This document shows, piece after piece, positions 2,568-61,010 of a stretch of DNA of 64,000 bases. Below the pieces are notes generated by a model. That model had not been told where the DNA came from and searched no databases. It worked only from the letters and a program-made list of their open reading frames with translations. A program made the position numbers and the translations under genes. The stretch is from an uncultured Clostridia bacterium (GTDB lineage Bacteria > Bacillota > Clostridia > TANB77 > CAG-508). The stretch lies in NCBI GenBank assembly GCA_944386685.1, contig CALXCA010000001.1, positions 10,931-74,930 on the forward strand, given 5' to 3'. Position 1 is the stretch's first letter. Each line of letters begins with the position of its first letter.

Positions 2568-3074
2568 CTAATTTTTATCTTTATTTAAAAATTTCATTTC
2601 TACATATAATTTATCTGCAACTGCTTGAACAACATTTTTTAATAAATACTGTTCTTCTGTCATTTTATCAATATGTGGAAATTCTTTGCGAAAAAATACA
2701 TTTTTTATAGATACTTCTATATTTGCACAAAATCTGTTATATGCTTTACTCAATTCAAAATAAGCTATTGTTTCTGAAATTAATTTTCCTATATCTCCTA
2801 TACTATATACTTGTTTTAATATACATATTACCATTAAATAAGCTATATGTGATTTACTATATTTCTTTTTTTCTGGAGCAGGCATTATCCCAAGTTTTAC
2901 ATAGTTATTAATCATTGTTTTGGTAATTATCTTTTCGTCTCCATTTACATTTAATATGCCTAAATATTTTTCTAAATAATTTACTACTTGGTCTAGATAT
3001 AAGTCAATTTCAGGTAATTCGTTCCATCTTGGTAAATGGTGCTTTATTACCTTTTCTATTTTTTCATCTTGCAT
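2568..3074 (-). CDS. DUF1836-family protein
   Basis: 168 aa. LPRWNELPEIDLYLDQVVNYL...TKTMINNYVKLGIMPAPEKKKYSKSHIAYL matches the DUF1836 pattern as I remember it. Confidence 0.65.
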   Translation of the reverse strand: MQDEKIEKVIKHHLPRWNELPEIDLYLDQVVNYLEKYLGILNVNGDEKIITKTMINNYVKLGIMPAPEKKKYSKSHIAYLMVICILKQVYSIGDIGKLISETIAYFELSKAYNRFCANIEVSIKNVFFRKEFPHIDKMTEEQYLLKNVVQAVADKLYVEMKFLNKDKN

Positions 3075-3096
3075 AATTATTTCATTCCTTGTATTA

Positions 3097-3140
3097 TATA
3101 TATTTAGGTTTTTTCTAAAGGATTAGCCTATAAACCTTTT
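3097..3140 (-). promoter_or_regulatory. Conserved upstream module (AAAGGTTTATAGG-N-AAAAACCTAAATAT), copy a
   Basis: One of four copies; TATTTAGG starts 27 nt from the start codon at 3074. See findings. Confidence 0.4.
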
Positions 3141-3234
3141 TAATATTTTATAATAATTTCAATTTCGTTTATGTTCAAAAATTTTTATAAATTAGCAATT
3201 TTTATTATAATATTTATCTACTTTAGTAAATTAT

Positions 3235-3981
3235 TTATTTTAATTTTCTCCTTTGCATTTTATAAGAAACTTTAGAAACTAAATTAGTTGGCGCTATTTT
3301 AACTCCTATTTTTGCAAATTTTATTGATAAGCCTGGTATAATATAAAACTTTCCTTTTAAAAATTTTTTTACAGTATATTTTGCCACATATTCACTACTT
3401 AAACCTTTTATTGCAAATTCTACATCTGCAACTTTATTAAAATTTGTATTAACAGGTCCTGGACATAAAATACTTATTCTAACTTTTGATTTCTGTTTTT
3501 TTAGTTCAGTTCTTATAGCTTCTGAAAGTCTTACAATATATGCTTTTGTTGAATAATATGTTGCCATAAGTGGTCCTGGCATAAAACCTGCAATTGATGC
3601 AACATTTAAAATTTTTCCACTATTATTCTTTATCATTTCTTTTAAATATAATTTTGTTAAAATATGATATGCTATTATATTAGTTTTTATCATTTGTAAG
3701 TCTTTATCTAAACTTGTCTCTTCAAAATGTCCACAATCTCCAAACCCTGCATTATTAACAAGTATATCTATATCTTTATAATCTTGGAATAATTTCTCGC
3801 AATTCTCTTCTTTAGAAATATCCATTGATACAATCTCTGCTTTTGTTTGAATTTGTTTTTTTACTTCTTCTAATCTCTCTACATTCCTTGCAACTAAAAT
3901 TAGGTCATACCCTCTTTTACTTAATTCTTTTGCAATATCTCTTCCTATACCAGAAGATGCACCTGTAACTAATGCTTTCAA
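3235..3981 (-). CDS. Short-chain dehydrogenase/reductase (SDR)
   Basis: 248 aa. TGASSGIGRDIA cofactor motif and YSTKAY catalytic motif. Confidence 0.85.
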   Translation of the reverse strand: MKALVTGASSGIGRDIAKELSKRGYDLILVARNVERLEEVKKQIQTKAEIVSMDISKEENCEKLFQDYKDIDILVNNAGFGDCGHFEETSLDKDLQMIKTNIIAYHILTKLYLKEMIKNNSGKILNVASIAGFMPGPLMATYYSTKAYIVRLSEAIRTELKKQKSKVRISILCPGPVNTNFNKVADVEFAIKGLSSEYVAKYTVKKFLKGKFYIIPGLSIKFAKIGVKIAPTNLVSKVSYKMQRRKLK

Positions 3982-3996
3982 ATTTTTACTTCCTTT

Positions 3997-4614
3997 CTAA
4001 AAACCTTTGGTAAAAGTATCTCTAAATATATTTACAATTACTTTTACAACTTCATTTTCATTATATAAATTAACAAAAAATTGTCTTGTTGTAGGTATTA
4101 TTGCCAAAATACAAATAACAATAATTAAAACTATTACACCTATAACTATTTTTTGAATGGTTTCTTTAGATAATTTTATTTTTTTCTTTGGAGTTGTTTT
4201 TACTTGATCATTTGTTACTTGCTCTGTTGTATCTCTTTTTCTAGTAATTCCTTTATATAAATTTCTTATAAAGTTTGCAGGCACACTTCCTAAATCTTCT
4301 TCATTTTCATTATTTATATTATATTGATTAGAGAATTTTTTTAAATTATTCTTTAATTGAATATTTTCCTGTTTTAATTTGTTATATTCATCAATAGATA
4401 TTATTTTACTTTGCAAATGATTATCATATTCTTTCCTTTTATAATCATTTGATAATACTTCATATGCTTCATTTATTTTCATCATTCTCTCTTGACTATA
4501 TGCTGATGATCTTAAATCTGGATGATATTTTTTTGCAAGTGTTCTATATGCTTTTTCAATTACTTCTTTTGAAGCATTTTTATCTACTTCTAATATTTCA
4601 TAATAATTTTTCAT
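3997..4614 (-). CDS. J-domain (DnaJ-like) membrane protein
   Basis: 205 aa. [32 protein letters not shown]-domain with HPD. One C-terminal TM ([18 protein letters not shown]). Confidence 0.75.
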
Positions 4615-6891: not shown

Positions 6892-8034
6892 TCAATTATT
6901 AATTAAAGTTTTTTCAAAAATTCCATACATTATTTGTGTGCCTAATAAAATTTCATCTATTCCAACATGGAAGTTTTCACTATGTTGTGAAAAGTTTTCT
7001 CCATCTTGACATCCAACAAAGAAAAATGCTCCTTTTCTTTCTTGTAAAATATAAGAAAAATCTTCTGAACACATTGTAGAATAATCTTTAATAATGTTTT
7101 CTTCCCCAACAATTTCTTTAGAAACATTTTTGACTAAATTTACATATTCTTCACTATTAACAAGTGCAGGATATTTATCATCTTTAAAAAACACTACTGC
7201 TTCTCCATTCATAGAATTTGCAATATTTGTAGAGACTTCTTTTATTCTATTTTTTATATAATCTCTTAAATTATTATTAAATGTTCTACAAATTCCTTTC
7301 ATTTCAACTTTGTCAGGAATTTTATTATTTGTATTTCCTCCATTTATTGCAGTAATTCCAAGGACTACATTTTCATTTGAGCTTATATTTCTGCCAACTA
7401 TTGATTGTAGAGCTATAACAATAGAACTTGCTATGTAAATTGGGTCTATACATTTTTCTGGAATTGCACCATGCCCCTCTTTTCCATATACAGTTATATT
7501 AAATGGATCTGTTGATGCCATTACTGGACCAGCTTTTATTCCAATAGTTCCTTTTTTTAATTCACTCCAAACATGTAATGCAAAAACACAATCTACATTT
7601 GGATTTTCTAAAACACCTTCTTCAATCATTTTTTTTGCTCCACCACTTGTTTCTTCTGCTGGTTGGAATAAAATTTTTACTGTACCATTTATATTTTCTT
7701 TTTCTTTAATTATAAGTTCGGCTAATGCAAGCATTATTGTCATATGTGCATCATGTCCACATGCATGTTGCATTTTACCTTTTTCGTCCATTTCTATTGC
7801 ATCCATTTCACATCTAAATAATACACATGGCTTTTCTTTTTTTCCCTTTAAAATAGCCATTACTCCTGTTTTTGCTATATTTGTTTTTATTTCATAGCCT
7901 AAGTTTTTTAATCTTTCAATAATATATCTTGAAGTCTCTATTTCTTCAAAACCTTTTTCTGGATGATGCCAGAAAAAGGTTTTATCTTCTTCCATTTGTT
8001 TTTTTAATTCAATTATCTTTTTATCTATCTTCAT
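6892..8034 (-). CDS. M20-family amidohydrolase (N-acyl-amino acid amidohydrolase-like)
   Basis: 380 aa. HACGHDAH, FQPAEE and GHGA motifs typical of M20D peptidases. Confidence 0.85.
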   Translation of the reverse strand: MKIDKKIIELKKQMEEDKTFFWHHPEKGFEEIETSRYIIERLKNLGYEIKTNIAKTGVMAILKGKKEKPCVLFRCEMDAIEMDEKGKMQHACGHDAHMTIMLALAELIIKEKENINGTVKILFQPAEETSGGAKKMIEEGVLENPNVDCVFALHVWSELKKGTIGIKAGPVMASTDPFNITVYGKEGHGAIPEKCIDPIYIASSIVIALQSIVGRNISSNENVVLGITAINGGNTNNKIPDKVEMKGICRTFNNNLRDYIKNRIKEVSTNIANSMNGEAVVFFKDDKYPALVNSEEYVNLVKNVSKEIVGEENIIKDYSTMCSEDFSYILQERKGAFFFVGCQDGENFSQHSENFHVGIDEILLGTQIMYGIFEKTLINN

Positions 8035-10647: not shown

Positions 10648-12123
10648 TTAATTTTCATCTGTATTTTCTACTGTACTATCTGTTGTATTTTCTGTACTTG
10701 TTTCAGCTGTATTTTCTATTGTACTATCTGTATTACTTTCAGTTGTATTTTCTACATTATTTTCTGTTGGACTTTTTGTTGTAACATCTTTTGCAATGCA
10801 ATTTGTAAACATATCTAATGAATTTGTTACTTTATCCATAGACCATTCTGCTCCTACATATACTTTTTCAAGACTTGTACAATTATAGAACATTTCGTAC
10901 ATTGTTGTTACATTTTGAGTGTTAAAACTACTTAAATCAAGTTCTTTTAAACTTGAACATCCACGAAACATTGAACTCATGTCTTTTAATTCTTTTGTTG
11001 TAAATCCATCAAAATTGATTTTTTGTAAATTTGTACATCCCTCAAACATAGATTTCATTCCTTCTACATTTCTAGTAACAAAATTGCTTAAATCTAATTC
11101 TGTAAGACTACTACATCCTCCAAACATATAGTTCATATTTTCAACTTTACTTGTGTCTATTTTGCTCATTCTAATTGTTTCTAATTTCTTGCAATTGTAA
11201 AACATGTATCTCATGTCTGTTACTTTACCCGTTTCGAAACTATATAAATTAATGTTTACAATATTATGACATTCACTAAACATATTCATCATTGTTGTAA
11301 CATTTGCTGTATTAAAACTACTTAAATTTAAACCTGTTAAATTATTACATCCTCCAAACATATAACTCATATCTGTACAATTTGAAGTATTAAAACTACT
11401 TACATCCAATTCAGATAAATTTTTACAATCAAAGAACATTTTACTCATATTAGTTACTTTGCTTGTGTTAAAATTATTTATTGGTAATTCTGTTAAAGAA
11501 CTACAATTGTAAAACATTTCTGACATATTTTCAACATTACTTGTGTTAAATCCACTAACATCTAAGTTAGTTAAGCTACTACAATTGTAGAACATTCCCA
11601 TCATATTAACAACACTACTTGTATTAAATTCACCTAATATTAAGTCTGTTAGTCCACTACAACCATAAAACATATTACTCATACTAACTACTCTATTAGT
11701 ACTCATTTTTTCTAAATTTATGCTTGTAATATATCTACAATCATAAAACCAATAATCTGTATTTGTTGGCACTATTTGGTCAATTACATTTACACTCGTA
11801 ATGTTTCTTCTATATTGATACCATGGAGGTAATATAGAAGCTCCAAATGTTTTATTTCTAATATTTTCTTGGAATACTATTCCATTTCCATCTTGCTCTG
11901 TTGTAGAAAATGTTAATGTTCCATCTTCATATAATGTAGCAAATATATTTGTTGCATATGGGTCATCTGACCAAATTTGGTTATTTCCAATGTCTTCATG
12001 ATTATCATCCTTAAACTTGATAACCAAAAATGTTATTATTACTCCTACTACAATTATTATTGCTAATACAATTGCTATTAGTGCAATTAAAGCCATTCCA
12101 TTATTTTTCTTTAGTTTCTCCAT
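10648..12123 (-). CDS. BspA-type leucine-rich-repeat (LRR_5) surface protein with N-terminal TM anchor
   Basis: 491 aa. About 13 repeats of the form N(M/T)SxMFxxCxSLTxLDLSxFNTSxV. N-terminal TM ALIALIAIVLAIIIVVGVIITFLVI. C-terminal TENT/STxEN low-complexity tail. Confidence 0.8.
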   Translation of the reverse strand: MEKLKKNNGMALIALIAIVLAIIIVVGVIITFLVIKFKDDNHEDIGNNQIWSDDPYATNIFATLYEDGTLTFSTTEQDGNGIVFQENIRNKTFGASILPPWYQYRRNITSVNVIDQIVPTNTDYWFYDCRYITSINLEKMSTNRVVSMSNMFYGCSGLTDLILGEFNTSSVVNMMGMFYNCSSLTNLDVSGFNTSNVENMSEMFYNCSSLTELPINNFNTSKVTNMSKMFFDCKNLSELDVSSFNTSNCTDMSYMFGGCNNLTGLNLSSFNTANVTTMMNMFSECHNIVNINLYSFETGKVTDMRYMFYNCKKLETIRMSKIDTSKVENMNYMFGGCSSLTELDLSNFVTRNVEGMKSMFEGCTNLQKINFDGFTTKELKDMSSMFRGCSSLKELDLSSFNTQNVTTMYEMFYNCTSLEKVYVGAEWSMDKVTNSLDMFTNCIAKDVTTKSPTENNVENTTESNTDSTIENTAETSTENTTDSTVENTDEN

Positions 12124-12293: not shown

Positions 12294-14687
12294 TTATATT
12301 TTTAAAATTTTACAAACAATTAAACTCATATCATCTTTAATCATTCCATAATTATTATCAACAGATTCATTTATAATTAAATCTGCAATTTTTTGTGCAC
12401 TTGTTGTTTCAATATCTTCTAACAAATATTTAACCCATAATTCTTTGTTTTTATATTCCACATTTGAATCTATTATACCATCACTACACATTACTAGTAT
12501 ATCTTGATTTATAATGTCTTTATCATAAACAGTTAAATTTATATCTTTTAATATTCCTGCAGGTAAACTTAAGGATTTAACAATTTGAACATTTTTACCA
12601 TTTTTTATATATGTAGGACATGCTCCATTTTTTATAAATTCAACTTTTCCATTAAACAGGTCTATTATTACAATATCTAGTGTAGCAAATATTTCTTCAT
12701 TTGTGTTCATTATTGTTGTATTTATTAAGTCTATAGATGTATTTTTATCAAATCCTGACATTAATAGTCTTTCCAACATTTTTATAGCAATTTGACTACT
12801 TTTTCTTGCCTCTGGTCCTGACCCCATTCCATCACTTATTGCTAATAAATATTTTCCATCACTTAATCTAATTTGTAAACAACTATCACCAGAAACAGGA
12901 CTTCCATTTTTTACTCTTACATCTTGTCCAATTTGCAATAAATATTTGTCTTCTGCCATATAAGAAAAAACTCTTTTTCCTTGCTTGTTGAATTTTTTTG
13001 TTTTTACTTCATTAATAACTAATTTTTCTTTAAATGTTTTCTCTAAAACGTTTTTAATATTATCTATATCTTTATTTTCTGTTGTTTTGCTATCTTCTTT
13101 TAAATAAATATCAATAAAGATTCTATTTTCTTTTTCCTGTACCACTAAGTCATCAACAAGTATTCCTTTTATTTCTAAAGCTGTAATAGTTTTTTTCTTT
13201 TTATCTACAAATACATCATCTTTTTTTGTCTCATTTTCCATTTTAACAGCAATACTAGAAATTGCTTTAGAAACACCATCTAATTGGGCTTGTACACTTT
13301 GTTTGTTTTGTTTAACTTTCTCTTCCCAAATAAAATCTGATTTGCTTGTTTTATAAGCATAATTTATAGCTTTAGTTATTTGTTCAACATCTGTTTTTAC
13401 ATTTTTATTTTCTGTAGCTATAATATAATGATTATTTTTTGCAAAAATATTTATAATATCTTTACTGTCTATCTCTTGTTTTTCAAGTAAAAGATTAAAT
13501 ATATCATCAAATATTTTTTCATCTATTTTTGTAAAGTCTTCATATAAAATGTTATCTTCTAATCCATCTAAATTATTTAGTAGTTCATTTTTAAAAGTTT
13601 CTTTATTTTTTTGTTTAATTTCATCTTGAGTTTTATTTAAAACTGGTACATAAGTTTCTGCAATATCTTTAATTGTTTCTGATACTACATTTAATTGTTC
13701 TATTGTGTCATTACTAGCTTTTAGTCTATTATTTGGAATATTTGGTAAATATTCTTCTTTTTCTGTTAATCCTTCAATATTAATTTTTATCCATTTTGGA
13801 ACAGCTAATAATCCCACAGAAGCAACTAAAATTTCTTTAAATAAAACAAAATTGCTTGTATCTCCATTAGATACATAAAATAATATTCCACTACCTATGC
13901 CAAAACCTGCTATCACCCCTATTTTTCCAAACCTATTAAGTAAACCAGCTATCATTCCAGAAATTGCATATCCTGCAACAAGAATAGGTTCACTTTGTGA
14001 AATTATTCCCAATGTTACTCCAATTGTTACTCCTGCTGTTGTTCCAACAAGAACTCCATGTCTCCAACCAAGTAATAAAACAATAAAAATACATAAAATA
14101 TTTTTAATTGATAATCCAAATATAGAAAAATCTCCAAACGCTGAAATTGCAATAGAAATTAATAAACAAGCTCCTATTACCTCTTCTATCGAAAATGCTT
14201 GCTTATCTGTAATTCCTTGTATTACGGATAATGAATTTACAAATATTTTATAGAATATAACAGACATTATTGCAAGAGTAATATGTAGTAGTAAATCTCC
14301 AACGGTAAATTCTGTTAATATCATTTTTGCAATCATAACTATCATTATACTGAAGAATATATGTTTTGATATTTGCATTTTTTCATTTTTATACTCATCA
14401 TTTTCTTTTGGTGGTCTTAAACATAAAATTATTAACATCATTAATAATATCAATATATAATTTAAAACTCCAATTACTCCAACACCTATTAAATTACCAA
14501 TCATCCCCAATATAACAACTACTATAGCTGGTATACCATTAGAAAAGCATGCACCTACAATTGCAATACTAAATGGAGAAACATCTTGTTCCATTCCAAC
14601 AATAGATATCATAAATGCCAACACATATATGATTATATTTTTTATACTAAATAAATTTTTTAGTATTTCTTTACTGTTCATAATCAT
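12294..14687 (-). CDS. spoIIE: Stage II sporulation protein E (membrane PP2C phosphatase)
   Basis: 797 aa. About 10 N-terminal TM segments, a central domain, and a C-terminal PP2C domain (LLAISDGMGSGPEARKSS...VMCSDGI). Confidence 0.9.
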   Translation of the reverse strand: MIMNSKEILKNLFSIKNIIIYVLAFMISIVGMEQDVSPFSIAIVGACFSNGIPAIVVVILGMIGNLIGVGVIGVLNYILILLMMLIILCLRPPKENDEYKNEKMQISKHIFFSIMIVMIAKMILTEFTVGDLLLHITLAIMSVIFYKIFVNSLSVIQGITDKQAFSIEEVIGACLLISIAISAFGDFSIFGLSIKNILCIFIVLLLGWRHGVLVGTTAGVTIGVTLGIISQSEPILVAGYAISGMIAGLLNRFGKIGVIAGFGIGSGILFYVSNGDTSNFVLFKEILVASVGLLAVPKWIKINIEGLTEKEEYLPNIPNNRLKASNDTIEQLNVVSETIKDIAETYVPVLNKTQDEIKQKNKETFKNELLNNLDGLEDNILYEDFTKIDEKIFDDIFNLLLEKQEIDSKDIINIFAKNNHYIIATENKNVKTDVEQITKAINYAYKTSKSDFIWEEKVKQNKQSVQAQLDGVSKAISSIAVKMENETKKDDVFVDKKKKTITALEIKGILVDDLVVQEKENRIFIDIYLKEDSKTTENKDIDNIKNVLEKTFKEKLVINEVKTKKFNKQGKRVFSYMAEDKYLLQIGQDVRVKNGSPVSGDSCLQIRLSDGKYLLAISDGMGSGPEARKSSQIAIKMLERLLMSGFDKNTSIDLINTTIMNTNEEIFATLDIVIIDLFNGKVEFIKNGACPTYIKNGKNVQIVKSLSLPAGILKDINLTVYDKDIINQDILVMCSDGIIDSNVEYKNKELWVKYLLEDIETTSAQKIADLIINESVDNNYGMIKDDMSLIVCKILKI

Positions 14688-14790
14688 CTTTTAACACCTC
14701 ATGTAATATTTTAATACTTGTCTTATGTGTTTTTTGTCTTTTCTTGTAAATAACTACAAAAAATTTTTTTACATTTTATGATACATTATT

Positions 14791-17550: not shown

Positions 17551-17660
17551 AATTTTCCTCTTTCTTAAATTTGTTTGTCAAAACTATTTATCTATGTTTT
17601 GACTGCCTATAATATATCATAAATTTTAAATTATTACAATATTTTAAGGTAATATTTACT

Positions 17661-17971
17661 GTGTCGGTCCTTTTTTGTGCTGGGGTCGGTCCTAAATTAA
17701 ACCAATATATAAAGTATTTTTTATACCTTGTGTGTCGCAACCTACAAAAGAATTTCAATAAGTAGGTTGCTCCAAATCGCATTCGCTACGCTCATTTGAT
17801 CGCTTACGCGGTATTACAAAACACTTTATATATTGATTTAATTTAGGACCGACCCCAGCACAAAAAGGGACCGACCCCAGCACAAAAAGGGACCGACCCC
17901 AGCACAAAAAGGGACCGACCCCAGTAGCACAACACAAAAAAGGACCAGCCCCAATAAAAAGGGACCGACCC
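17661..17971. repeat. Composite palindromic element, copy A (iterons - arm - core - arm - iterons)
   Basis: Arms 17684-17720 / 17817-17854. Core 17721-17816. GGACC box starts at 17846, 17868, 17890, 17912, 17942 (degenerate) and 17962. Inverted boxes at 17661-70 and 17682-92. Confidence 0.85.
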
Positions 17972-17987
17972 TAACAATATTTATATA

Positions 17988-18713
17988 TTATACAGCTTGT
18001 TGTCCTTCAGTATTTTCTGTTTCGGCTTTTTCTGTTTTTCCATCTTCACTTAATAGTTCTAAGCTACATACAGAAACTTCATATGCAGTTTTTGTTTCAA
18101 CACTTCCATCTTCATGTTTCTTTTCATATTGTCTTGATTGAACTCTTCCTACAATTTTTACTTGAGCTCCTACTTCTATGTTTTGACAGAATCTTGCATT
18201 TCTTCCCCATGCAATTGTTGGGATATAATCTGATTTATTATATGCTCTGTTTACAGCTAATAATAAATCTGCAATTTCTCTTCCAAATGGTGTTTGTCTG
18301 TAAATTGGCTTTTTGCAAACAAATCCAATAAGTACAACTTCATTTGTCATTTCATCCTTCTTTGGAGTTTCTTCACTATTTTCTCCTTCTTGTGCTTGTG
18401 TTTCTGCTTCAGGTAATTCTTGAACATCTTTAGCAAAAACAGTTAATACTAATTTGTTTTTTTCATTTTCAAAGCTGTTGTATGATCTAAATTGTCCTTT
18501 AATTAATAATTTTTTTCCTTCTGATAATGTATCATCAGAAATTAGTCTTTCTGATACTGTTATTGGGATAATATCTGCATTTCCACTTAAACGTGCTATA
18601 GATAATGAAAATCTATAGAATTTCTCCCCATAAATTTCGTGGCTAAATGTTTTTTCGCCTGTAACTCTTCCAACTAATGTTAAATAGTTGTTTTCTAAAT
18701 AATTTGTATCCAA
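17988..18713 (-). CDS. Tandem-OB-fold single-stranded-DNA-binding-like protein
   Basis: 241 aa. Two SSB-like OB modules (LTLVGRVTGEKTF...RFSLSIARLSGNADIIPITV... and VVLIGFVCKKPIYRQTPFGREIADLLLAVNR...IPTIAWGRNA...) joined by an acidic linker. No canonical C-terminal DDDIPF tip (ends ...NTEGQQAV). Confidence 0.6.
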   Translation of the reverse strand: MDTNYLENNYLTLVGRVTGEKTFSHEIYGEKFYRFSLSIARLSGNADIIPITVSERLISDDTLSEGKKLLIKGQFRSYNSFENEKNKLVLTVFAKDVQELPEAETQAQEGENSEETPKKDEMTNEVVLIGFVCKKPIYRQTPFGREIADLLLAVNRAYNKSDYIPTIAWGRNARFCQNIEVGAQVKIVGRVQSRQYEKKHEDGSVETKTAYEVSVCSLELLSEDGKTEKAETENTEGQQAV

Positions 18714-36943: not shown

Positions 36944-37546
36944 ATGTTTGCTTATATAAAAGGAATTCTTGAAGAAAAAGAAAATAATTATGTTGTTATA
37001 GATATAAATGGATTAGGATATAAAATTTTTATGTCTCAAAATAATATAGATTCAATTGGTAATATTGGAGAAGTGGTTAAAGCATATACTTATGTTAGAG
37101 TTAGAGAAGATGATATTAGCATTTATGGTTTTTTAACAAAAGAGCAATTAAAAATGTTTGAACTTTTAATTTCTGTAAGTGGTGTTGGTGCAAAAAGTGC
37201 TTTAGTTATGTTATCTTGTATTGAACCATCAGACTTTGCTCTTGCAGTTATCTCTGGGAATGTAAAAGTTTTAACAAAAGTTCCTGGAATAGGAAATAAA
37301 TCTGCTCAAAGAATCATTTTAGAATTAAAAGATAAATTAAAAGAAGAACAGCTTGAAGAAACATATTCTAATTCTTCAGCTCAAAAAGATAATAGCGAAA
37401 ATATTAATGAAGCAATTTCTGGATTAATGGTATTAGGTTATTCTAGAAAAGATATTGAAAAAGCTTTTGAACATTTAGATATAGATAATTTATCTATTGA
37501 AGATTTAATAAAAAAAGGACTAGTTCTATTATCGAAAAAAGCATAA
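36944..37546 (+). CDS. ruvA: Holliday junction branch-migration complex subunit RuvA
   Basis: 200 aa. MFAYIKGIL...GLGYKIF OB domain, two HhH motifs (VSGVGAKSAL, VPGIGNKSAQRI), C-terminal domain III. Confidence 0.9.
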   Translation: MFAYIKGILEEKENNYVVIDINGLGYKIFMSQNNIDSIGNIGEVVKAYTYVRVREDDISIYGFLTKEQLKMFELLISVSGVGAKSALVMLSCIEPSDFALAVISGNVKVLTKVPGIGNKSAQRIILELKDKLKEEQLEETYSNSSAQKDNSENINEAISGLMVLGYSRKDIEKAFEHLDIDNLSIEDLIKKGLVLLSKKA

Positions 37547-37550
37547 AAAC

Positions 37551-37836
37551 TTGCTGTGGTTATTGGGGTCGGTCCTTTTTTGGTCTGGGGTCGGTCCCTT
37601 TTTTGCTTGGGGTCGGTCCTAAAATCAAACCCAATATATAAATTGTTTTGTAATACCGCGTAAGCGACCAAATGAGCGTAGCGAATGCGATTTGGAGCAA
37701 CCTACTTATTGAAATTCTTTTGTAGGTTGCGACACACAAGGTATAAAAAACAATTTATATATTGGGTTTGATTTTAGGACCGACCCCAATAACCACCACT
37801 GGGCAAGAAAAGGACCAATCACAAATAGACCAGCCC
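37551..37836. repeat. Composite palindromic element, copy B (core inverted relative to A and C)
   Basis: Boxes GGGGTCGGTCC at 37565, 37587 and 37609. Perfect 38-bp arms 37611-37650 / 37745-37785. Box 37777-87. Decayed boxes 37811-20 and 37828-36. Outermost IR CTTGC..GTGGTTATTGGGGTCGGTCC. Confidence 0.85.
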
Positions 37837-45063: not shown

Positions 45064-48000
45064 TTATTTAGTATTTTTTATTAAAACTTTTCTTTTAATA
45101 AATAGTACTCCAACTACTAGAACTATCAAGCCTAATCCTGCTGTTGTTATATATAGAGTTTTTGATATTATTACACCAGTTGGTGGTGTTATTGTTGTCC
45201 TTACACTATCTTCATCTGTTTCTTTTGCATATTCTGGTATTAAGTTACCTGGTGTTGTAACATTTACTCTATCATAACCAACTTCTGTTTTATCTTTATT
45301 TTGTGTATATCCTATATATTCTAGTATTTCTACATCATTTGTATATTTCATCTCATCACTTGTTGTTAATAATTTACTTACATTATAAGAAATTGATTTT
45401 GTCTCTCCAATTTTTACTAAAGAATCATTTTCATCAGAGAATGCATCTGTCATAAACATTATATATTTACCATCTTCTAGTTCTTTTTCTACTTCTTCAG
45501 TAATTAATCTATATGTTTTTTCTCCAGTAGCCTCTGTTGTTTTGTGTGCTATTAAGTCTTCCATTTCTGCAACTTCCCAGCCACTTCTCTTTAATTCATC
45601 TAAGTCTACATCTATTTCTGGTGTTAAGTAATCTACTAAAGTTCCAATTCTTACTGTTACTGGATTATTACCCTTTTCTCCATAGAAGTAGTAGTTTCTT
45701 TCATTTGCTACATCTGTATCACTTGTTATTTGATATATTGGATAATCTAATTCAGAATTATTACTTACTGAAATAGTATATTCTTCTTCTATTGTTGCAC
45801 CTTCTGTTAATTCTGTATCCATTTCAATTGGAACAAAATCATCTATTCCTGTTCTTACATATGGAATATCTTCATTTGGATCACTTGGGTTTCCTTTAAT
45901 AGGTACTTGACCATTTCCTAATGTTACTGTTAAATTTGTAATTTGTTTATCAACTTCTAATTCAACTAAAGGTCTTTCTATTAATCCAAAGTCCATATTT
46001 TGTAAATTATATTCATAATCTATTGTTCCATTTTCTTGTGTTGTTAATGTTGCATCAACATTTTGGTCATTAAATTGTTCTACACCTAGTCTCATATATG
46101 GAGTATATGCTTCCATTTCTGAGTATGCGTATTTTGAACTATCATTTATGTTTTCATTATTTAGTTTTGCATATTGTTCAAAATATGCTCTATATTCAAT
46201 ATCATCTACTGCATCTGAATATCTTGTTCCTGTATTGTTATTTAAGAACCATGATACATCAGTATTTCCTTCTGCCCAATCTCCGTTTAAATGTGGTATA
46301 CCATCATTTGCTGTATTTATTGCTTTTCTTATATAATCTGATGTTATTATTGTAGATTTATATTCTCTTGCCTTTATTGGCTCTTGTTTTACTTGTTCTC
46401 CATTATTGTAGATATAAGTATTCTTTCCTTCTCCACCAATATTTTCACCATAAGTATATCTTATTACATAATTGTCTGCAACTACACCTTCAAATGAATA
46501 GTTACCATTTTCATCTGTCCAAGTTACTGCATCTCCAATTTCTGTTTGTGTTCCATCATTATTTGTTTTATAAAGTTTTGCTAATTGATAATTATGTTTA
46601 GATGTTACATTATCTCTAGCCATTGTAGAATCATACATTTCGTTTGCATCTACTGGCACTAATAATAGTTCTACTTTAACATTTGACATTACACTTTCAT
46701 TTTCATCATATGTTCCATTTCCTAATCTTTCATTATCTTTTAACAAATCTTTATCAGCACTATCTTCATAAACTGTTCCTGTTATACTTGTTTGACTACC
46801 TTTTGTTAAGATAAATGTTGGTGCTATTGTTGTATCATTTTCAAATGTATCTATTTTAAATCTATTATTATCATTTGGATCTGTTTCTACTCTAGCATTT
46901 CTTGGAGCAGAATTACTATCTATACTTGCATATGGTCTTAATCCGCCAGATGTTTGTAAAGGAACTACTTCATTATCTGCATATGTTGAATATGTTTTTA
47001 TTTCTGCCATAAAGTCAAATTTAATTCCTTTTAATTCTCCATCTGGAGTATTTAATGCTGTTGCATCATTTAAAATTTCTGCTATAACTTTTGCATCTGC
47101 CCTTAGGGTTATTTCTATTACCTGTCTATTTTTTGCTTCTATTGTCTTATCACCTAATTGTGTTAAATCTAAAGTAAGTTCTTTAATTTCTCCAGTTCCA
47201 CCTGGATCTGTAACTGCTACGGCAGGTTCTCCCTCATAATTATATGATATACAAGATAATTGACTTCCATAATTAATTGTTATTTCCCTAATTTTTGCTG
47301 ATAATGTATTAGATTTATTTTGTAAATAAATTTTATAAGTAATATCTGCATATACATTTCCATTTGCACCTGTTGTTCCATCATCTGCACTATATACAAT
47401 TGTTGATTCATGTAATGGTCTTTCATAATAACTGTCTTTTAATGCTTTTAATTTAACTCCCATTTCTTCCTCTTTATTTGGATCAACTATTGTACCATAT
47501 TTATATATATGATGATAATTATTTACTGCTAAATCAAATCTTGCTACATCACTATCTAGTGCTAAGTCTACTTGCTCTCTTACATATAATCCTAAATTTA
47601 ATCCTTCTATTGTTGTTGTATTAGAAATGTTTGAGCCACTACCAGACATTGTTGCTGATAATAAATCTGCAATATTGCAATTGTTTAATGATGTTGCAAT
47701 TATATGGTAAACATCATCACCATAAGCTTCTGGGCTACCATAATTTACTTTTGATTCATAATCTCCAGATTTATTATAATTAATAGTTGCTGAAGCATTT
47801 ACTACTGTTCCTGTAGAATTTCCACTAGCATCCATTTGAGTATTAGAAGTTATTGTTTCAAACTTATTATTAAAGCTTTCTCTTACACTATCTTCTTCAG
47901 CTGCTTTTGATGAATCTAAAGCTCCACCTTTATTTAATTCTACATTTCTATATTTTACACCATTATATTCAAATTCAACATAATAGCTTGCTAAATCTTC

Positions 48001-51000
48001 TATTCTTAATGTATCTTCAGAATAAGATAAGTCTGCATTTCTTGATCCAAATGAGTATTCTCCATTTGCATCTGTAAATGTGCTAAAACTTGTTCCTCTT
48101 ACAGTATCATATAATGTTACTTTAACACCTTCAACTCTCTTATCTGTTCCACCTGTATAAACACTATCTATTGTATTGTCTTTTCCATCTAGCATATCTT
48201 CCCATACATAACCTTTTAGGTTAATAAATTCTTTCTTATTAGCAACTTTTACAATACAAATTATATCTCCAGAATTTATTGTTACTTCCGCAACCTTTTT
48301 ATTTCCTGCACCTGTATTATAATTATCTTCCCAAACACCATAACCATAAGGTGATTCTATTTCATAAATTGTATAAGTTCCTGCATGTAATCCTGTTATT
48401 GTTTCTCCAACTCCAACTTCCCATGTTTGACCATCACCTTCAACTCTAAATTTAAATCCAGAACCTCCTGGGTTTGAAGGATCATATAATATCTCTCCAG
48501 TATCTTCATCATATTTAAAAATTGTTAAACTTTTTGGTAGTTCTGGTGGTGTGAATGTAATTGTAGTAGAAAATGTTTCTTCTAAATCTAATGTACTACA
48601 AGCACTTTCTGGAACATTTATTGGTTGGCTAGTACTTTGACCTTGACCACATCCTGGACAAACATATTCTGGTGATACAACAAATTGATCTGTCCATGAG
48701 AAACATATTGTAATTGAAATATGTATTGTTCTAGAAATTGTAACACTTAATGATGTTGCACCTGCACTACCTTCTAATTGTACTGCTGTAACACTACAAT
48801 CAAGACCAGCTCCACCTGAAATTATACTCTCAATTGCTTCTCCATCAAATGATGTCATATTAGAAGCATCAACATGACCAGCAATTGCATTCCAAACAGC
48901 TTCTGATTCTGCATCTGTAAATGAGCCTGGAATATCTCCATCAATAGAGAAATCTAATCCTTCATTAGTCCAGCTCAAATTTGCTCCCTCTGGGAAGTCA
49001 TCTCCAGAAACTGTAACTGTTGTACTTGTTATAGATATACCTGTTGGTCCATTATATACAACTGGTACAGATATTTCACTCCATTCATAATATCTACCAT
49101 CACATTCTTGAGGTCCTGTTGGGTCATTTTCATCTACTGGATGACAGTTTTCATCAGTATGGAAGTGAGCTCCTGGTTTACCACATTTACCTTCACCAAC
49201 TAAATTTCCTGAATGGTCATATATCTTAAATACACCTGTTCCTGAACCTTGGAAATTAGATAAGATTGCACTAAATGTAGCTCCATGTAAATTTGCTGTT
49301 GCATCCATTACAGCATCTTGTACCATTGCTTCTGCTTGTGCTTGTGCATCTGCAATTGTTCCATCTATTGAATATGCAAAGCCTTTTGTATTAAATGCAA
49401 ACATTGATGTTGCAAAAATTACCATAAATAATACAAATAATCTCTTTTTAACAATAATTTTTCTCATAAATAATACTAATAATACTATACAAATTCCACC
49501 TAAAATTGTACTTCCCATAATTCTTAATGCAATTTGGAATCCTGTTGCAACTGCAATTAATACTTCTACTGAATCTGAATTATTTTCTGAATTCATATCT
49601 TCAGTATATTTTGAACTCTCTGTTGTTCCAAGTTTTGCTGTTGTAACAAATTTACCAGCAGAATCTGCATCTAATGTTTTACTTAATATAAATGTTGCTT
49701 CTATACTTTCTCCTGGTGCTATATTTTTATTTGCAAAACTTACATTACTGTATGTATTAGATAAAGAAACTGTCCAACCATCATTTAATTCTGAGTGGAA
49801 ATCTAATGTTGATGGAATTTCTTCTAATATCTCATATACCTTTCCATCTAAATCTCCAACATTTGTAACTCTTATTTTATATTCAATAATAACTGTTGAA
49901 CCAACTATTTGTTTTGAATGAATTTCAATTTTTGCAAATTTTTCATCATCAAAATTATATTCTTTTGTTCCTTTACTATTATTTACAGTTATTTTTTCTA
50001 CAAATTGTTCTATTTTTAAGTCAAATGTTTTTCTTTCACTTAATCCCATATCTATATTAGTATAATTTGTAATTAAATCTATTGTATTTGTAATACCAAC
50101 ATTTTTTACTTCTCCATCAATATTAACACTTTTTTCTATTGCGTCATTATTTTCTGATGGATTTGAATCTATAATTTGATAATCTGTGATTTTATATTTT
50201 TCTGTATCATATTCAAATACAACATAATATTCTCCTTTAGGAAGATTTGTAAAAGCATATGTTCCTTCTGATTGTGTAACTTGTTTTAATCTATTACCTT
50301 TATCATCTGTAACAAATTTATTATTTGTTACATCATATAAAGATACTGTTACACCTTCTATTTTACTTTCATTACTATCTTTAATTCCATTTTCATTATC
50401 ATCATTCCAAACTAAACCAGATATAGAATATGTTTTATTTGGTTGATCATTATTATCATCTTCTGGAGGTGTTACTATTGGTTTATCTTCTCCATCTGTT
50501 ACATTTCCATCTGAATCTACATCAATTATATTTGTAGTATCTGGATGATATAATGTATTTTGAATTATATTAGATTGTTTTGTCTTAATACCTTCTCCAC
50601 TTACTAATGCTGAATTTGCAATTTCAATATTATCTTGTTTAGCGTCAAATGCTCTAGTTTCTGTTACAATTTTTATTGTAATTGTTTCACCATTTTTTAT
50701 ATTTAAGTTAAGTTTTATTCTTGCAGGTCCAGTATTATCTTTACCATTTGCTTGACCTTTTTCTACTGTTCCCCAAACAACATTTTCTTCTGTTAAATTA
50801 TATTTAATTATAAAATAATTATCTAAATCTGTTCCTTGTGTAACTTTAAAATTATTATATTCTAATTCTTGTATAGAAAGTTCATTTGGAAGATAATCTT
50901 CAAATACTACTGATGTATATCCTCCCCATTCATCTATAGTATAACCTGTATTTGTAATTTCGTAAGTATATATTATTTCATTAAATTCTTCTATTCTTTC

Positions 51001-52518: not shown

Positions 52519-52656
52519 AAACATTTACCTCCTAATTAATTTTATTAATAAACACTACTTTTATTATACCATATATTACCTTATTTTTCAACATTTTTAT
52601 CAAATTTCTTATCAATAGTTACTAGATTATGGTCTTGAATAAAATAGAAAATAAAG

Positions 52657-60641: not shown

Positions 60642-61010
60642 AAAAATCCCTCCCACTTTTACAATACTATTAATATTTTATCACAATTTTACATAAAACA
60701 CAAGCTTTTTGCCATTTTTTTCTAATTTTTTTATTTTAACTAACTTGCATATTTTTTAGCTGTCTGTAGGCATTTAGGGAAACTTGACTTACAACGTTTT
60801 TTTATGTCTTGCTTCAAGTTTTTTATTTATATATTTTTTGTAGTTTTTTGTTTTTACATCATATAAAAACGCATTTTCTACAATGCAAAGAATAGCAAGG
60901 AAAACTTGCTATTCTTTGTTTTGATTAAATATTTTCATTTGTATTTTTAAATATCTAGTTATTTTCTTTAGTTTTTATTGTTTCTTTAGTTTTTATTTAT
61001 TTTAGAAGTT

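What the first reader, a model, noticed from the sequence alone, without database searches (positions are those of the whole stretch)
17661..17971. Three-copy GC-rich composite palindromic element: conserved asymmetric core, co-varying 37-38 bp arms, 22-bp GGACCGACC iterons (copy A)
Three loci (17661-17971, 37551-37836, 41404-41678) share one architecture and stand out by eye as GC-rich islands in very AT-rich DNA. (i) A non-palindromic core of about 96 nt: TTATACCTTGTGTGTCGCAACCTAC-(16 nt)-GTAGGTTGCTCCAARTCGCATTCGCTACGCTCATTTGRTCGCTTACGCGGTAT. By my manual alignment the copies differ by only 1-4 substitutions. The core contains a 9-bp hairpin GCAACCTAC/GTAGGTTGC (17737-17770) and a 6-bp CCAAAT/ATTTGG hairpin around a GC-rich 16-nt loop. 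(ii) 37-38 bp inverted arms starting GGTCGGTCC (A has 2 mismatches; B and C are perfect). Their sequence differs between copies: A CCTAAATTAAACCAATATATAAAGT, B CCTAAAATCAAACCCAATATATAAATT, C CCCAAATCAAACCAATATATAAAGT. Every difference in B and C is mirrored in the partner arm. (iii) Tandem iterons GGGACCGACCCC-AGCACAAAAA lie on the outside. In A the GGACC starts are 17846, 17868, 17890 and 17912 (period 22), then 17942 and 17962, with two inverted boxes at 17661 and 17682. The A5 tract recurs once per 22-bp unit. A conserved core, compensating arms and variable iteron number (A 2+6, B 3+1 plus 2 decayed, C 1+4 plus 1 decayed) do not fit a passively decaying repeat. The pattern points to selection on a hairpin or cruciform, or to copying through one, together with a sequence-specific GGACCGACC-binding factor. 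I cannot match it to any named RNA family, IS terminus or REP/BIME-type element.
Basis: partly seen in the sequence, partly recalled or inferred. Interest (0 to 1): 0.8.

Follow-up and report, generated by a model that had tools for sequence, protein, structure and literature searches.

The report
Mobile palindromic repeat with origin-like core
The three GC-rich islands are copies of a small non-coding, mobile palindromic repeat of uncultured gut Clostridia. Its invariant centre resembles the single-strand replication signals of rolling-circle plasmids, and it sometimes flips between its two arms, which makes it an unusual variant of the REP/MITE class rather than a new kind of system.

Summary
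Three copies share a 92-nt asymmetric core, inverted arms of about 40 bp, and 22-bp tandem units.

About 45 further copies occur in six related gut Clostridia species genomes and in many strains. In those copies the core is almost invariant, the arms differ but stay complementary, and only the window's species has the 22-bp units.

- **Mobility.** The sites of copies B and C are empty in sister species.
- **Flipping.** At three orthologous loci the core is inverted between strains or species whose flanks are 97-99% identical. Substitutions, and even mutated 22-bp units, are mirrored on both arms. The "co-variation" is therefore best explained by arm-to-arm DNA recombination, not by RNA-type selection.
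- **22-bp units.** Neighbouring GGGGUCGGUCCC units pair through G·U and are followed by a U tract. They form tandem terminator-like hairpins that face incoming transcription. A dedicated binding factor is not needed to explain them.
- **Core.** One strand carries two DNA "mini-hairpin" motifs, GCGTAAGC and GCGTAGC. It shares 12-20 nt with hairpin loops on the displaced strand of rolling-circle plasmids (pC194, pE194 ssoA, pDLK3).

I infer, without proof, that the core is a single-strand-origin-like signal that acts on ssDNA. The element is a new variant of the REP/BIME/MITE kind.

The parts
17660..17692 (+). Copy A, left pair of 22-bp units (GTGTCGGTCC-T6-GTGCT-GGGGTCGGTCC). They are read inward on the + strand.
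17682..17722 (.). Copy A, left arm of the palindrome (GGGGTCGGTCC + TAAATTAAACCAATATATAAAGTATTTT).
   Evidence: I1: 17663-17723 pairs with 17815-17875, 61 nt, 93%
17723..17814 (-). Copy A, asymmetric conserved core (ATACC...GGTAT, 92 nt). The strand that carries the mini-hairpin/CS-6-like motifs is the - strand.
17737..17770 (.). Copy A, hairpin P2 (GCAACCTAC-16 nt-GTAGGTTGC). One pair co-varies between species (U-A in 22 copies, C-G in 16).
17779..17798 (-). Copy A, invariant 20-mer. It reads CAAATGAGCGTAGCGAATGC on the - strand and contains GCGTAGC (17785-17791). The second mini-hairpin motif, GCGTAAGC, lies at 17802-17809.
17815..17857 (.). Copy A, right arm. It has two uncompensated mismatches against the left arm.
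17846..17976 (-). Copy A, right array of six 22-bp units. On the - strand neighbouring units pair into hairpins followed by U tracts (terminator-like), directly downstream of the ssb gene at 17988-18713.
37556..37629 (+). Copy B, left array of three 22-bp units downstream of ruvA (36944-37546). The number of units varies (2, 3 or 5) between strains.
37607..37652 (.). Copy B, left arm.
   Evidence: I1: 46 nt, 98%
37653..37744 (+). Copy B, core. The mini-hairpin strand is the + strand (GCGTAAGC at 37658-37665, GCGTAGC at 37676-37682).
37744..37830 (.). Copy B, right arm (37744-37789) followed by one intact and two decayed units.
41394..41442 (.). Copy C, single left unit and left arm.
41445..41536 (-). 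Copy C, core. The mini-hairpin strand is the - strand (GCGTAGC at 41507-41513, GCGTAAGC at 41524-41531).
41540..41680 (-). Copy C, right arm (41540-41580) and an array of four intact units plus one decayed unit. On the - strand the array is terminator-like, downstream of the gene at 41683-42933.

Best explanation
The three loci are copies of a non-coding, mobile, palindromic intergenic element. It belongs to the same general kind as REP dimers, BIMEs and MITEs, and it is confined to a small clade of uncultured, low-GC (about 25%) human-gut Clostridia.

**Shown**
- The functional unit is a core of about 92 nt enclosed by inverted arms.
- The element is gained or lost between species.
- The two arms recombine with each other. 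This flips the core and copies changes from one arm to the other, so the arms stay complementary while they drift between copies.
- In the window's species the outer end of each arm has been amplified into 22-bp units. On the inward-reading strand each unit is a 12-mer that is self-complementary through G·U (GGGGUCGGUCCC) followed by a U tract. Neighbouring units therefore fold into tandem terminator-like hairpins facing transcription that comes in from either side.

**Inferred**
- The invariant GC-rich half of the core acts as single-stranded DNA.
- One strand carries two extraordinarily stable DNA mini-hairpin motifs, GCGTAAGC and GCGTAGC, plus a CS-6-like TAGCGA.
- That strand is identical over 12-20 nt to hairpin loops on the displaced strand of rolling-circle plasmids.
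- I therefore propose that the core is a single-strand-origin/ssi-like signal. It would be a folded, SSB-resistant site where RNA polymerase or primase starts or stops a primer for complementary-strand synthesis. It would serve either the element's own propagation through an ssDNA intermediate or a host replication function.

The confidence of 0.55 is for the whole statement. The shown part alone I put at about 0.8, and the sso-like step alone at about 0.4.
For: **Family and conservation**
- About 31 loci from six Clostridia species genomes (MAGs), plus strain variants, carry the element.
- In a 38-copy alignment a 45-nt stretch is invariant while the arms vary.
- Arm pairs show many both-sides changes: 15, 11 and 7 of 38 copies at three pairs.

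**Flipping**
- Window copy A against L001, with flanks about 99% identical.
- At locus A, 1 of 9 strain contigs is flipped, plus the species genome locus L001.
- At locus C, 2 of 7 scorable contigs are flipped (L086 and L088, from independent samples, sharing a distinct haplotype).
- L014 against L017: the arms there are only about 38 bp, so assembly ambiguity is unlikely, and the difference ATGAATAA versus ATTAATAA is mirrored on both arms.
- Mutated units are mirrored, for example GGAACGACC/GGTCGTTCC in L009, and the palindrome is 97/100 identical.

**Mobility**
- The sites of B and C are empty in species whose RuvA is 92%, 89% and 86% identical.

**Terminator-like units**
- The inward strand folds to -30.6 kcal/mol against -16.8 kcal/mol for the outward strand.
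- It forms 11-12-bp stems followed by U tracts, and the terminator scan reports one.
- The number of units varies between strains.

**Core as an ssDNA signal**
- GCGNNAGC and GCGNAGC occur in the 64-kb window only inside the three cores, apart from one other site.
- Each motif is kept in 64 of 66 copies. The one GCGGAGC variant still fits the motif.
- An unrelated gammaproteobacterial repeat family varies mainly at the N position: GCGCAGC 4 times, GCGTAGC 4 times, and one GCCTAGC that breaks the motif.
- Mini-hairpin DNA and its occurrence at ssDNA-phage complementary-strand origins are described in PMC13037366.
- GAGCGTAGCGAA sits in a hairpin loop next to the pC194 dso, on the displaced strand.
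- The centre of the pE194 ssoA has GCGTAAGC, and the centre of the pC194 ssoA has GCGTGAGC overlapping CS-6.
- There is an 18-nt identity with the terminal loop of a pDLK3 hairpin.
- ssDNA folding leaves the motif region largely unpaired inside a long stem.
- The properties of sso elements are taken from PMC4598088, PMC5703833 and PMC8860593.
Against: - No rolling-circle Rep, relaxase, HUH or other transposase or recombinase gene was found in the window. The whole genomes could not be scanned.
- The RS_B motif that defines ssoA origins is absent. The best match has 6-7 mismatches, which equals background.
- The plasmid matches are short. BLAST E-values are 0.07 to 10 in 7.3 Gb, so the link rests on motif, strand and structural context, not on statistically secure homology.
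- Core orientation shows no clear rule relative to GC skew (25:15) or to neighbouring genes (23:12). A strong bias would be expected for a signal used on the lagging-strand template, although flipping would erase it.
- No target-site duplication or parent element was identified.
- Inversions are inferred from metagenome assemblies. For copies with perfect arms of about 55 nt or more, assembler ambiguity cannot be fully excluded.
- No transcription data exist to confirm that the units terminate transcription.
Confidence: 0.55

Rival explanations
1. The core is a structured small RNA. The long arms would be a closing stem or an RNase III processing site that releases the RNA from read-through transcripts.
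For: - Hairpin P2 keeps pairing through a U-A to C-G change.
- On one strand CGC-GUAA-GCG would be a GNRA tetraloop hairpin (read from the sequence).
- The whole element folds far better than shuffled sequence.
Against: - No Rfam family reaches its threshold. The only sub-threshold hits are plant long-hairpin miRNA precursors.
- No promoter is found in or at the core.
- The unit arrays would stop incoming transcription before it reaches the core.
- Arm mismatches show no G·U preference on either strand.
- The core lies in either orientation relative to its neighbours and flips.
- The 45-nt invariant stretch is predicted to be unpaired and shows no covariation.
- The same motif occurs on the ssDNA strand of plasmids.
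Confidence: 0.12
2. The element is a phase-variable switch (inverton). A dedicated site-specific invertase would flip the core between the arms to regulate neighbouring genes.
For: - Inverted repeats flank a short segment that is found in both orientations at three loci.
- Many contigs break inside the element.
Against: - Five of the surveyed copies sit between convergent gene ends, where nothing can be driven.
- There is no sigma-70-like promoter in the core.
- Flips are rare and specific to a haplotype: locus A 2 of 11 (9 strain contigs, L001 and the window), locus B 0 of 8, locus C 2 of 7.
- No recombinase gene is found in 64 kb.
- Arm sequences differ between copies within one genome, which fits homologous recombination better than a fixed recombinase site.
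Confidence: 0.1
3. The element is a classical MITE. It would be a deletion derivative of an insertion sequence, moved by a DDE transposase that binds the arms. The 22-bp units would be multiple transposase-binding sites, as in Tn7 or Mu ends.
For: - Terminal inverted repeats are present.
- Presence and absence vary between species.
- There are multiple copies per genome.
- The 22-bp sub-terminal repeats lie in inverted orientation at both ends.
Against: - The centre is far more conserved than the arms, which is the reverse of a MITE.
- The 22-bp units are missing from the same element in sister species.
- No target-site duplication is evident.
- No larger element with the same ends was found in about 400 kb of related sequence or in the window.
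- Perfect mirroring of private arm variants is not expected for TIRs.
Confidence: 0.13
4. The 22-bp units are iterons bound by a sequence-specific protein. They would form a Rep-type origin or a nucleoprotein array with phased A tracts.
For: - The period is a regular 22 bp with one A5 tract per unit.
- The array is 77.6% identical over 76 bp to the 22-bp Rep iterons of Bifidobacterium pNAC2-type plasmids.
Against: - No rep gene is adjacent.
- The units are specific to one species, whereas the core is shared.
- Copy number changes freely between strains.
- The units are fully explained as G·U-self-complementary 12-mers plus a U tract that form terminator hairpins on the inward strand only.
- The plasmid similarity is inflated because a 17/22 match is repeated.
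Confidence: 0.08
5. The three copies are only recent duplicates of neutral DNA, and the compensated arms are a coincidence.
For: The three window copies differ by only 1-3 substitutions in the core.
Against: - The core is conserved across six species whose arms have diverged to about 60% identity.
- About nine different arm variants exist in one species, each matched by its partner arm.
- The core is flipped at orthologous loci.
Confidence: 0.02

Closest known systems
ssoA-type single-strand origins (palA) of rolling-circle plasmids such as pE194, pC194 and pT181
   Same: - Both are extended imperfect palindromes of about 150 nt that fold in ssDNA, with a conserved unpaired centre.
- Both have a CS-6-like TAGCG(A/T) embedded in a GCGNNAGC or GCGNAGC mini-hairpin on one strand.
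- The pE194 centre shares GCGTAAGC(GA) with the core, and the loop next to the pC194 dso shares GAGCGTAGCGAA.
- Both are strand-asymmetric.
   Different: - The element has no RS_B motif.
- It is not on a plasmid or ICE, and no rep gene or dso is nearby.
- It occurs at 13 or more dispersed chromosomal copies.
- Its arms are near-perfect, whereas sso stems are imperfect.
- Its activity is untested.
REP dimers, REPINs and BIMEs, including the IHF-binding RIP/BIME-1 of E. coli
   Same: - Both are extragenic and multicopy, with inverted palindromic units around a spacer.
- The REP literature describes conserved spacers in head-to-head dimers and REP dimers embedded in longer palindromes (PMC3733652).
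- Both have proposed terminator or mRNA-stabiliser roles.
- GTAG/CTAC lies at the foot of hairpin P2.
   Different: - Here the centre, not the flanking palindromes, is the conserved part.
- The arms are AT-rich and about 40 bp long, not 20-40-bp GC-rich REPs.
- Copy number is tens, not hundreds.
- No RAYT gene was identified (not testable genome-wide).
- Firmicutes do not appear in the GTAG/CGTC survey.
Bacterial MITEs such as Correia, ERIC and RUP
   Same: - Size is 150-350 bp.
- Both have terminal inverted repeats and sit in intergenic regions.
- Both show presence/absence polymorphism.
- Both can supply terminators.
   Different: - No target-site duplication or parent IS was found.
- The centre is more conserved than the TIRs.
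- Private arm variants are perfectly mirrored, and the core flips in situ.
Invertons (invertible promoter switches of gut bacteria, C. difficile RecV switches)
   Same: A short segment between inverted repeats is found in both orientations in natural populations.
   Different: - The segment contains no promoter.
- Many copies have no gene to control.
- No invertase was found nearby.
- The core is identical at all loci.
G4-type complementary-strand origins and ssi signals with mini-hairpin DNA
   Same: GCGNNAGC mini-hairpins occur on the strand that must be primed, within larger hairpins (PMC13037366).
   Different: - There is no sequence homology beyond the motif.
- Those signals are in phage or plasmid genomes as single copies.

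Membership tests
ssoA-type single-strand origin | A partially palindromic region of about 130-200 nt that folds into an extended hairpin as ssDNA | tested here: met
   Folded as ssDNA, the core plus inner arms gives -35.4 kcal/mol (z = -9.5) with a long stem around a multi-branched centre. The pE194 ssoA, folded the same way, gives -35.2 kcal/mol.
ssoA-type single-strand origin | CS-6 (TAGCGT or TAGCGA) in an unpaired central loop | tested here: met
   TAGCGA lies within GAGCGTAGCGAATGCG, inside the invariant stretch predicted to be unpaired. The same 12-mer sits in the pC194 and pDLK3 loops. A 6-mer on its own is weak evidence.
ssoA-type single-strand origin | RS_B (TTATGCCGAGAAAATTT) in the loop-distal part of the stem | tested here: not met
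   The best match in A, B or C has 6-7 mismatches, equal to random 350-nt windows. pE194, pC194 and pT181 match with 0-1 mismatch.
ssoA-type single-strand origin | Located on a rolling-circle replicon or ICE, on the displaced strand, with a rep gene and dso | tested here: not met
   The neighbours are chromosomal housekeeping genes (ssb, ruvA, spoIIE and others). No Rep or relaxase is present in 30 scanned ORFs.
ssoA-type single-strand origin | Orientation-specific conversion of ssDNA to dsDNA through RNA-polymerase priming | not testable with these tools
   This needs a plasmid ssDNA-accumulation assay or an in-vitro priming assay.
REP / BIME / REPIN | Short (20-40 bp) GC-rich imperfect palindromes tagged by GTAG or CGTC, present in hundreds of copies | tested here: not met
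   The unit is 150-350 bp with AT-rich arms. There are about 13 copies in the species genome. GTAG is present, but inside the P2 stem.
REP / BIME / REPIN | Inverted pair of units around a spacer, extragenic, forming one long hairpin | tested here: met
REP / BIME / REPIN | A cognate RAYT (Y1 transposase) gene flanked by the repeats | not tested
   None is present in the window.
MITE | Terminal inverted repeats plus a target-site duplication | tested here: inconclusive
   The inverted repeats are clear. No duplication is visible at the ends of the palindrome. Filled and empty sites come from species too diverged to fix the exact junctions.
MITE | A parent IS with the same ends | tested here: not met
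   No larger element is bounded by these arms or units in the window or in the fetched related loci.
Inverton / phase-variation switch | A segment between inverted repeats found in both orientations | tested here: met
   This is seen at loci A, C and L014/L017, but between strains or species rather than within one sample.
Inverton / phase-variation switch | A promoter or other orientation-dependent expression signal inside, acting on an adjacent gene | tested here: not met
   There is no promoter-like site in the core. All four flanking-gene configurations occur, including 5 convergent ones.
Rfam RNA families | A score at or above a family's gathering threshold | tested here: not met
   There are 0 hits in the window. 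In the E-value scan only plant MIR long-hairpin models appear, at 66 bits against a 245-bit threshold.
Rep-binding plasmid iterons | Tandem repeats of about 22 bp next to a rep gene and an AT-rich unwinding region | tested here: not met
   The period and a 77.6% resemblance to Bifidobacterium iterons are present, but there is no rep gene and the units are dispensable in sister species.
Intrinsic (Rho-independent) terminators, for the 22-bp units | A GC-rich stem-loop followed directly by a U tract on the transcribed strand | tested here: met
   Neighbouring units form 11-12-bp stems with 8-10-nt loops followed by U5-6, on the inward-reading strand only. Termination itself is not shown.

The most novel reading that the evidence does not exclude
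The element could be a previously unrecognised class of dispersed chromosomal "single-strand-origin modules". In this reading it is a selfish palindromic DNA that propagates through a folded ssDNA (hairpin) intermediate. Its invariant core, with two SSB-resistant mini-hairpins, recruits host RNA polymerase or primase to make the complementary strand.

Hairpin-templated copying would explain the perfectly mirrored arms and the flip/flop of the core, by analogy with the terminal hairpins of parvoviruses.

The loop motif GAGCGYAGCGAA, which recurs in rolling-circle plasmids, a Haemophilus plasmid, a gammaproteobacterial REP-like family and scattered genomes of several phyla, would then be a widely used ssDNA priming or termination signal that has not yet been described.
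Probability: 0.2. Interest if true: 0.85.

Novelty: new variant of a known kind. Interest (0 to 1): 0.6.

Why it matters
- **A different route to "covariation".** Near-perfect compensating changes in a repeat can come from arm-to-arm recombination in DNA rather than from selection on an RNA fold. This is a practical caution for covariation-based RNA discovery.
- **An unusual repeat family.** In uncultured gut Clostridia with genomes of about 1.5 Mb, the constrained part of the repeat is the centre, not the ends. That centre carries the same mini-hairpin/CS-6-type motif as the ssDNA origin regions of rolling-circle plasmids.
- **A testable hypothesis.** If the core does work as a single-strand priming signal, dispersed chromosomal copies would be new. 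It would also suggest how some palindromic repeats spread or are tolerated.
- **Useful side products.** The 22-bp units give a simple, testable model of modular tandem terminators, and their copy number could serve as a strain marker.

Tried and rejected
- **Rfam.** The gathering-threshold scan and the E-value scan found no real family.
- **Phage and virus sources.** The viral-contig scan and the phage BLAST found nothing.
- **E. coli genomes.** No match.
- **Small peptide in the core.** MSVANAIWSNL... is rejected because the frame is broken by a 1-nt deletion in the L027 lineage and third codon positions are invariant (read).
- **Promoter in the core or arms.** No sigma-70 site was found. Manual checks for sporulation-sigma motifs were unconvincing.
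- **RS_B motif.** Absent.
- **Xer/dif-like or hix/gix-like arms.** I compared them from memory only. The resemblance was too weak to pursue.
- **G·U bias in arm mismatches.** None: 5 G·T against 7 A·C.
- **Strand bias.** Relative to GC skew (25:15) or neighbouring genes (23:12) the bias is weak and not independent between copies.
- **Recombinase or transposase in the window.** 30 ORFs were scanned and none qualifies.
- **Literature search for the exact sequences.** The long motifs returned nothing relevant. The 12-mer search led to the pC194 origin sequence.
- **Unrelated genomes with the 20-mer.** I looked for shared genes, tRNAs or Rfam features and found no common context apart from being intergenic. 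Only L044 proved informative.
- **CCAAAT/ATTTGG stem.** It is not supported by covariation.
Full report
**1.

The three loci are as described.
- The 53-nt core pattern occurs exactly three times, against 0 expected.
- GGACCGACC with at most 1 mismatch occurs 16 times against 0.19 expected, always inside the three elements.
- The arms are 61 nt at 93% (A), 46 nt at 98% (B) and 41 nt at 98% (C), and the 22-bp period is exact.
- All three copies are intergenic. A lies downstream of ssb and upstream of a WG-repeat protein gene. B lies between the convergent ends of ruvA and an unknown gene. C lies between convergent gene ends.
- The window is ordinary chromosome of a sporulating, 25%-GC Firmicute. 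It contains SpoIIE, RuvA, SSB and MgsA, and no mobile-element genes.

**2. It is a family, and the centre is the conserved part**

- A scan of one genome per prokaryotic species with the invariant 20-mer found about 31 loci in six "uncultured Clostridia" gut MAGs. Twelve of them are in the MAG of the window's own species.
- Metagenome contigs and an HMM search added more copies.
- In the sister species the core of about 92 nt is almost unchanged. The arms are different (TTAGAAATTAATAATATATTGTTTTT and variants) but still inverted, and there are no GGACCGACC units.
- In a 38-copy alignment a 45-nt GC-rich stretch is invariant. Hairpin P2 keeps pairing through one U-A to C-G change. Arm pairs show many both-sides changes.
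- Rfam has nothing above threshold. The only sub-threshold hits are plant long-hairpin miRNA precursor models.

**3. The element is gained and lost**

- Synteny around ruvA is conserved in species whose RuvA is 92%, 89% and 86% identical.
- Their ruvA-downstream site (locus B) holds only a short hairpin or unrelated sequence. The locus-C site, readable only in the 86% species (L083/L085), holds only a plain terminator.
- No core-like sequence is present in those loci.
- Copies occur in all four flanking-gene configurations, including five convergent ones. The element is therefore not an obligatory promoter or leader.

**4. The arms recombine with each other**

- At locus A the flanks of the window and of L001 are about 99% identical, yet the segment between the arms is inverted. 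One further strain (L068) shares the flipped haplotype and eight do not.
- At locus C, two independent samples (L086, L088) carry the flipped core together with a different distribution of outer units. That haplotype includes a mirrored copy of the left outer segment on the right side. Five other scorable contigs match the window.
- At L014/L017, two species with flanks 97-98% identical, the core is inverted. A substitution (ATGAATAA versus ATTAATAA) is present on both arms of each element. Those arms are only about 38 bp, so assembler ambiguity is unlikely.
- Within one species about nine arm variants exist, each matched by its partner arm. Mutated units are mirrored (GGAACGACC/GGTCGTTCC), and palindromes reach 97/100 identity.
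- Arm mismatches show no G·T preference.
- The simplest reading is concerted evolution of the two arms by intramolecular recombination and gene conversion, with occasional crossover that flips the core.
- Caveat: all orientation calls come from metagenome assemblies.

**5. The 22-bp units**

- They exist only in the window's species, and their number changes between strains (2, 3 or 5 on the ruvA side of B).
- On the strand read towards the core each unit is GGGGUCGGUCCC followed by U5-6 and about 5 more nt. The 12-mer is self-complementary through G·U.
- Neighbouring units therefore form 11-12-bp hairpins, each followed by a U tract. The fold gives -30.6 kcal/mol against -16.8 kcal/mol for the opposite strand. 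The terminator scan reports one such hairpin.
- The arrays thus look like tandem intrinsic terminators that face transcription entering from either side, which fits their position directly after stop codons.
- A dedicated GGACCGACC-binding protein is not required. It is also not excluded.
- The 77.6% resemblance to the 22-bp Rep iterons of Bifidobacterium plasmids is probably a repeated chance match.

**6. What the core may be**

- The exact 20-mer also turned up in unrelated genomes and plasmids, more often than the roughly one chance hit expected.
- Read on the strand opposite to my "core +", the invariant stretch is ATACC-GCGTAAGCGA-CCAAAT-GAGCGTAGCGAATGCG-ATTTGG.
- It contains GCGTAAGC and GCGTAGC. 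These fit the GCGNNAGC and GCGNAGC "mini-hairpin DNA" motifs, which are extraordinarily stable, bind SSB poorly, and are known at the complementary-strand origins of the ssDNA phages G4, St-1 and alpha3 (PMC13037366).
- In the 64-kb window these motifs occur only in the three cores, plus one other site.
- Each motif is kept in 64 of 66 family copies, and the one GCGGAGC variant still fits.
- A REP-like family in a gammaproteobacterial contig (L044) carries GAGCG[C/T]AGCGAATGC in a CCAT/ATGG-closed loop. It varies mainly at the free N position. One of its nine copies (GCCTAGC) breaks the motif.
- The same 12-mer, GAGCGTAGCGAA, forms the loop of the hairpin AAAGGATTT/AAATCCTTT immediately 5' of the pC194 double-strand origin, on the displaced strand (PMC7072734).
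- An 18-nt identity lies in the terminal loop of a hairpin in the non-coding region of the tiny rolling-circle plasmid pDLK3.
- The centre of the pE194 ssoA contains GCGTAAGCGA and a TAGCGA. The centre of the pC194 ssoA contains GCGTGAGC overlapping CS-6.
- Published descriptions say that an sso is an extended partial palindrome active only as ssDNA and in one orientation, with RS_B in the loop-distal stem and CS-6 in the loop, where primer RNA ends.
- The Clostridial element shares the fold, the strand asymmetry and the CS-6/mini-hairpin centre. It lacks RS_B and any plasmid context.
- I therefore call it sso/ssi-like by inference, not a member of ssoA. The individual plasmid matches are short (E-values 0.07 to 10).

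**7. Verdict**

- The finding is real and more structured than a decaying repeat.
- Best supported: a mobile REP/BIME/MITE-like palindromic mosaic element whose arms are homogenised by recombination, giving flip-flop of the core. Its outer units are terminator modules.
- Its invariant centre most likely works as a single-stranded-DNA signal related to those of rolling-circle replicons. I put that last step at about 40% on its own.
- Rivals are a small RNA, a regulatory inverton, a classical DDE MITE, and protein-bound iterons. Each fails at least one test made here, but none is excluded by experiment.
- Novelty: a new variant of a known kind. Interest: moderate to high, mainly for the centre-conserved architecture, the documented arm-to-arm copying, and the possible link between dispersed repeats and ssDNA priming signals.

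Noticed in passing
window 40801-41309: Thirteen same-strand AC[AT]AAAGAT boxes cluster downstream of the 360-aa gene (39671-40801) and just upstream of element C. The window has 41 such boxes against 23.8 expected. The array is conserved in related species (L077, L083). It may be a protein-binding array, and an HTH_26 gene lies upstream in sister species.
   Followed up: partly
L044 (metagenome contig, 53% GC), for example 100-296, 3848-3901, 10804-11132, 12995-13229, 14644-14688: A gammaproteobacterial chromosome segment carries a REP-like repeat in nearly every intergenic region. The repeat is a CGTC-type hairpin (GGATCCCTGCCT.CGCAGGGATGAC) joined to a loop GAGCG[C/T]AGCGAATGC that is almost identical to the Clostridial core motif.
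   Followed up: partly
L003/L010, L049-L056, L057 (pPN223, 4152-4172); L097 (pIVK83, about 2501-2529); L005/L024, L019, L023, L031, L035, L043, L047: The exact 20-mer GCATTCGCTACGCTCATTTG occurs in intergenic DNA of unrelated bacteria and one archaeon, and in small Haemophilus and Staphylococcus plasmids. This is more often than chance predicts. In L005 it flanks a 60-bp insertion as an 18-bp direct repeat.
   Followed up: partly
L041 1785-1880 (Bifidobacterium longum pNAC2): Four and a half 22-bp iterons, GGGGACAAAAAGGGAGCGAACC, resemble the window's 22-bp unit at 17 of 22 positions. This is probably coincidence.
   Followed up: partly
L090 about 2750-3170: In one sample, element C is joined on its far side to a different gene neighbourhood (DUF975, a glycosyl hydrolase). 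The junction lies inside the 22-bp unit array. This is either recombination between two element copies or an assembly chimera.
   Followed up: no
L012 about 7430-7680, L011, L030, L038; L077 3605-3660: In the sister species the element sits inside a further outer inverted repeat (GTTACAATTCACAG / CTGTGAATTGTAAC and relatives). An "empty" hairpin of this type occupies the ruvA-downstream site in the 92%-RuvA species. This suggests nested palindromes, or insertion into hairpin loops.
   Followed up: partly
L013, L022, L028, L033, L037, L042 (outer margins of elements): A second box type, GAGAACCGG[C/T]AC preceded by an A tract, lies at the outermost ends of some elements of the window's species. 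It is mirrored on both sides and absent from the window.
   Followed up: partly
L066, L067, L092-L095: Several metagenome contigs end inside the element. Two of them (L093 and L094) end at the same core position, as expected for a repeated or orientation-ambiguous segment.
   Followed up: no
window 45064-52524 and 52833-60656: There are two adjacent giant ORFs of 2486 and 2607 aa on the - strand. I did not examine them.
   Followed up: no
window 44937-44943: This is the only mini-hairpin motif (GCGAAGC, - strand) in the window outside the three elements. It lies in the intergenic gap just upstream of the ACPS gene at 44529-44915.
   Followed up: no
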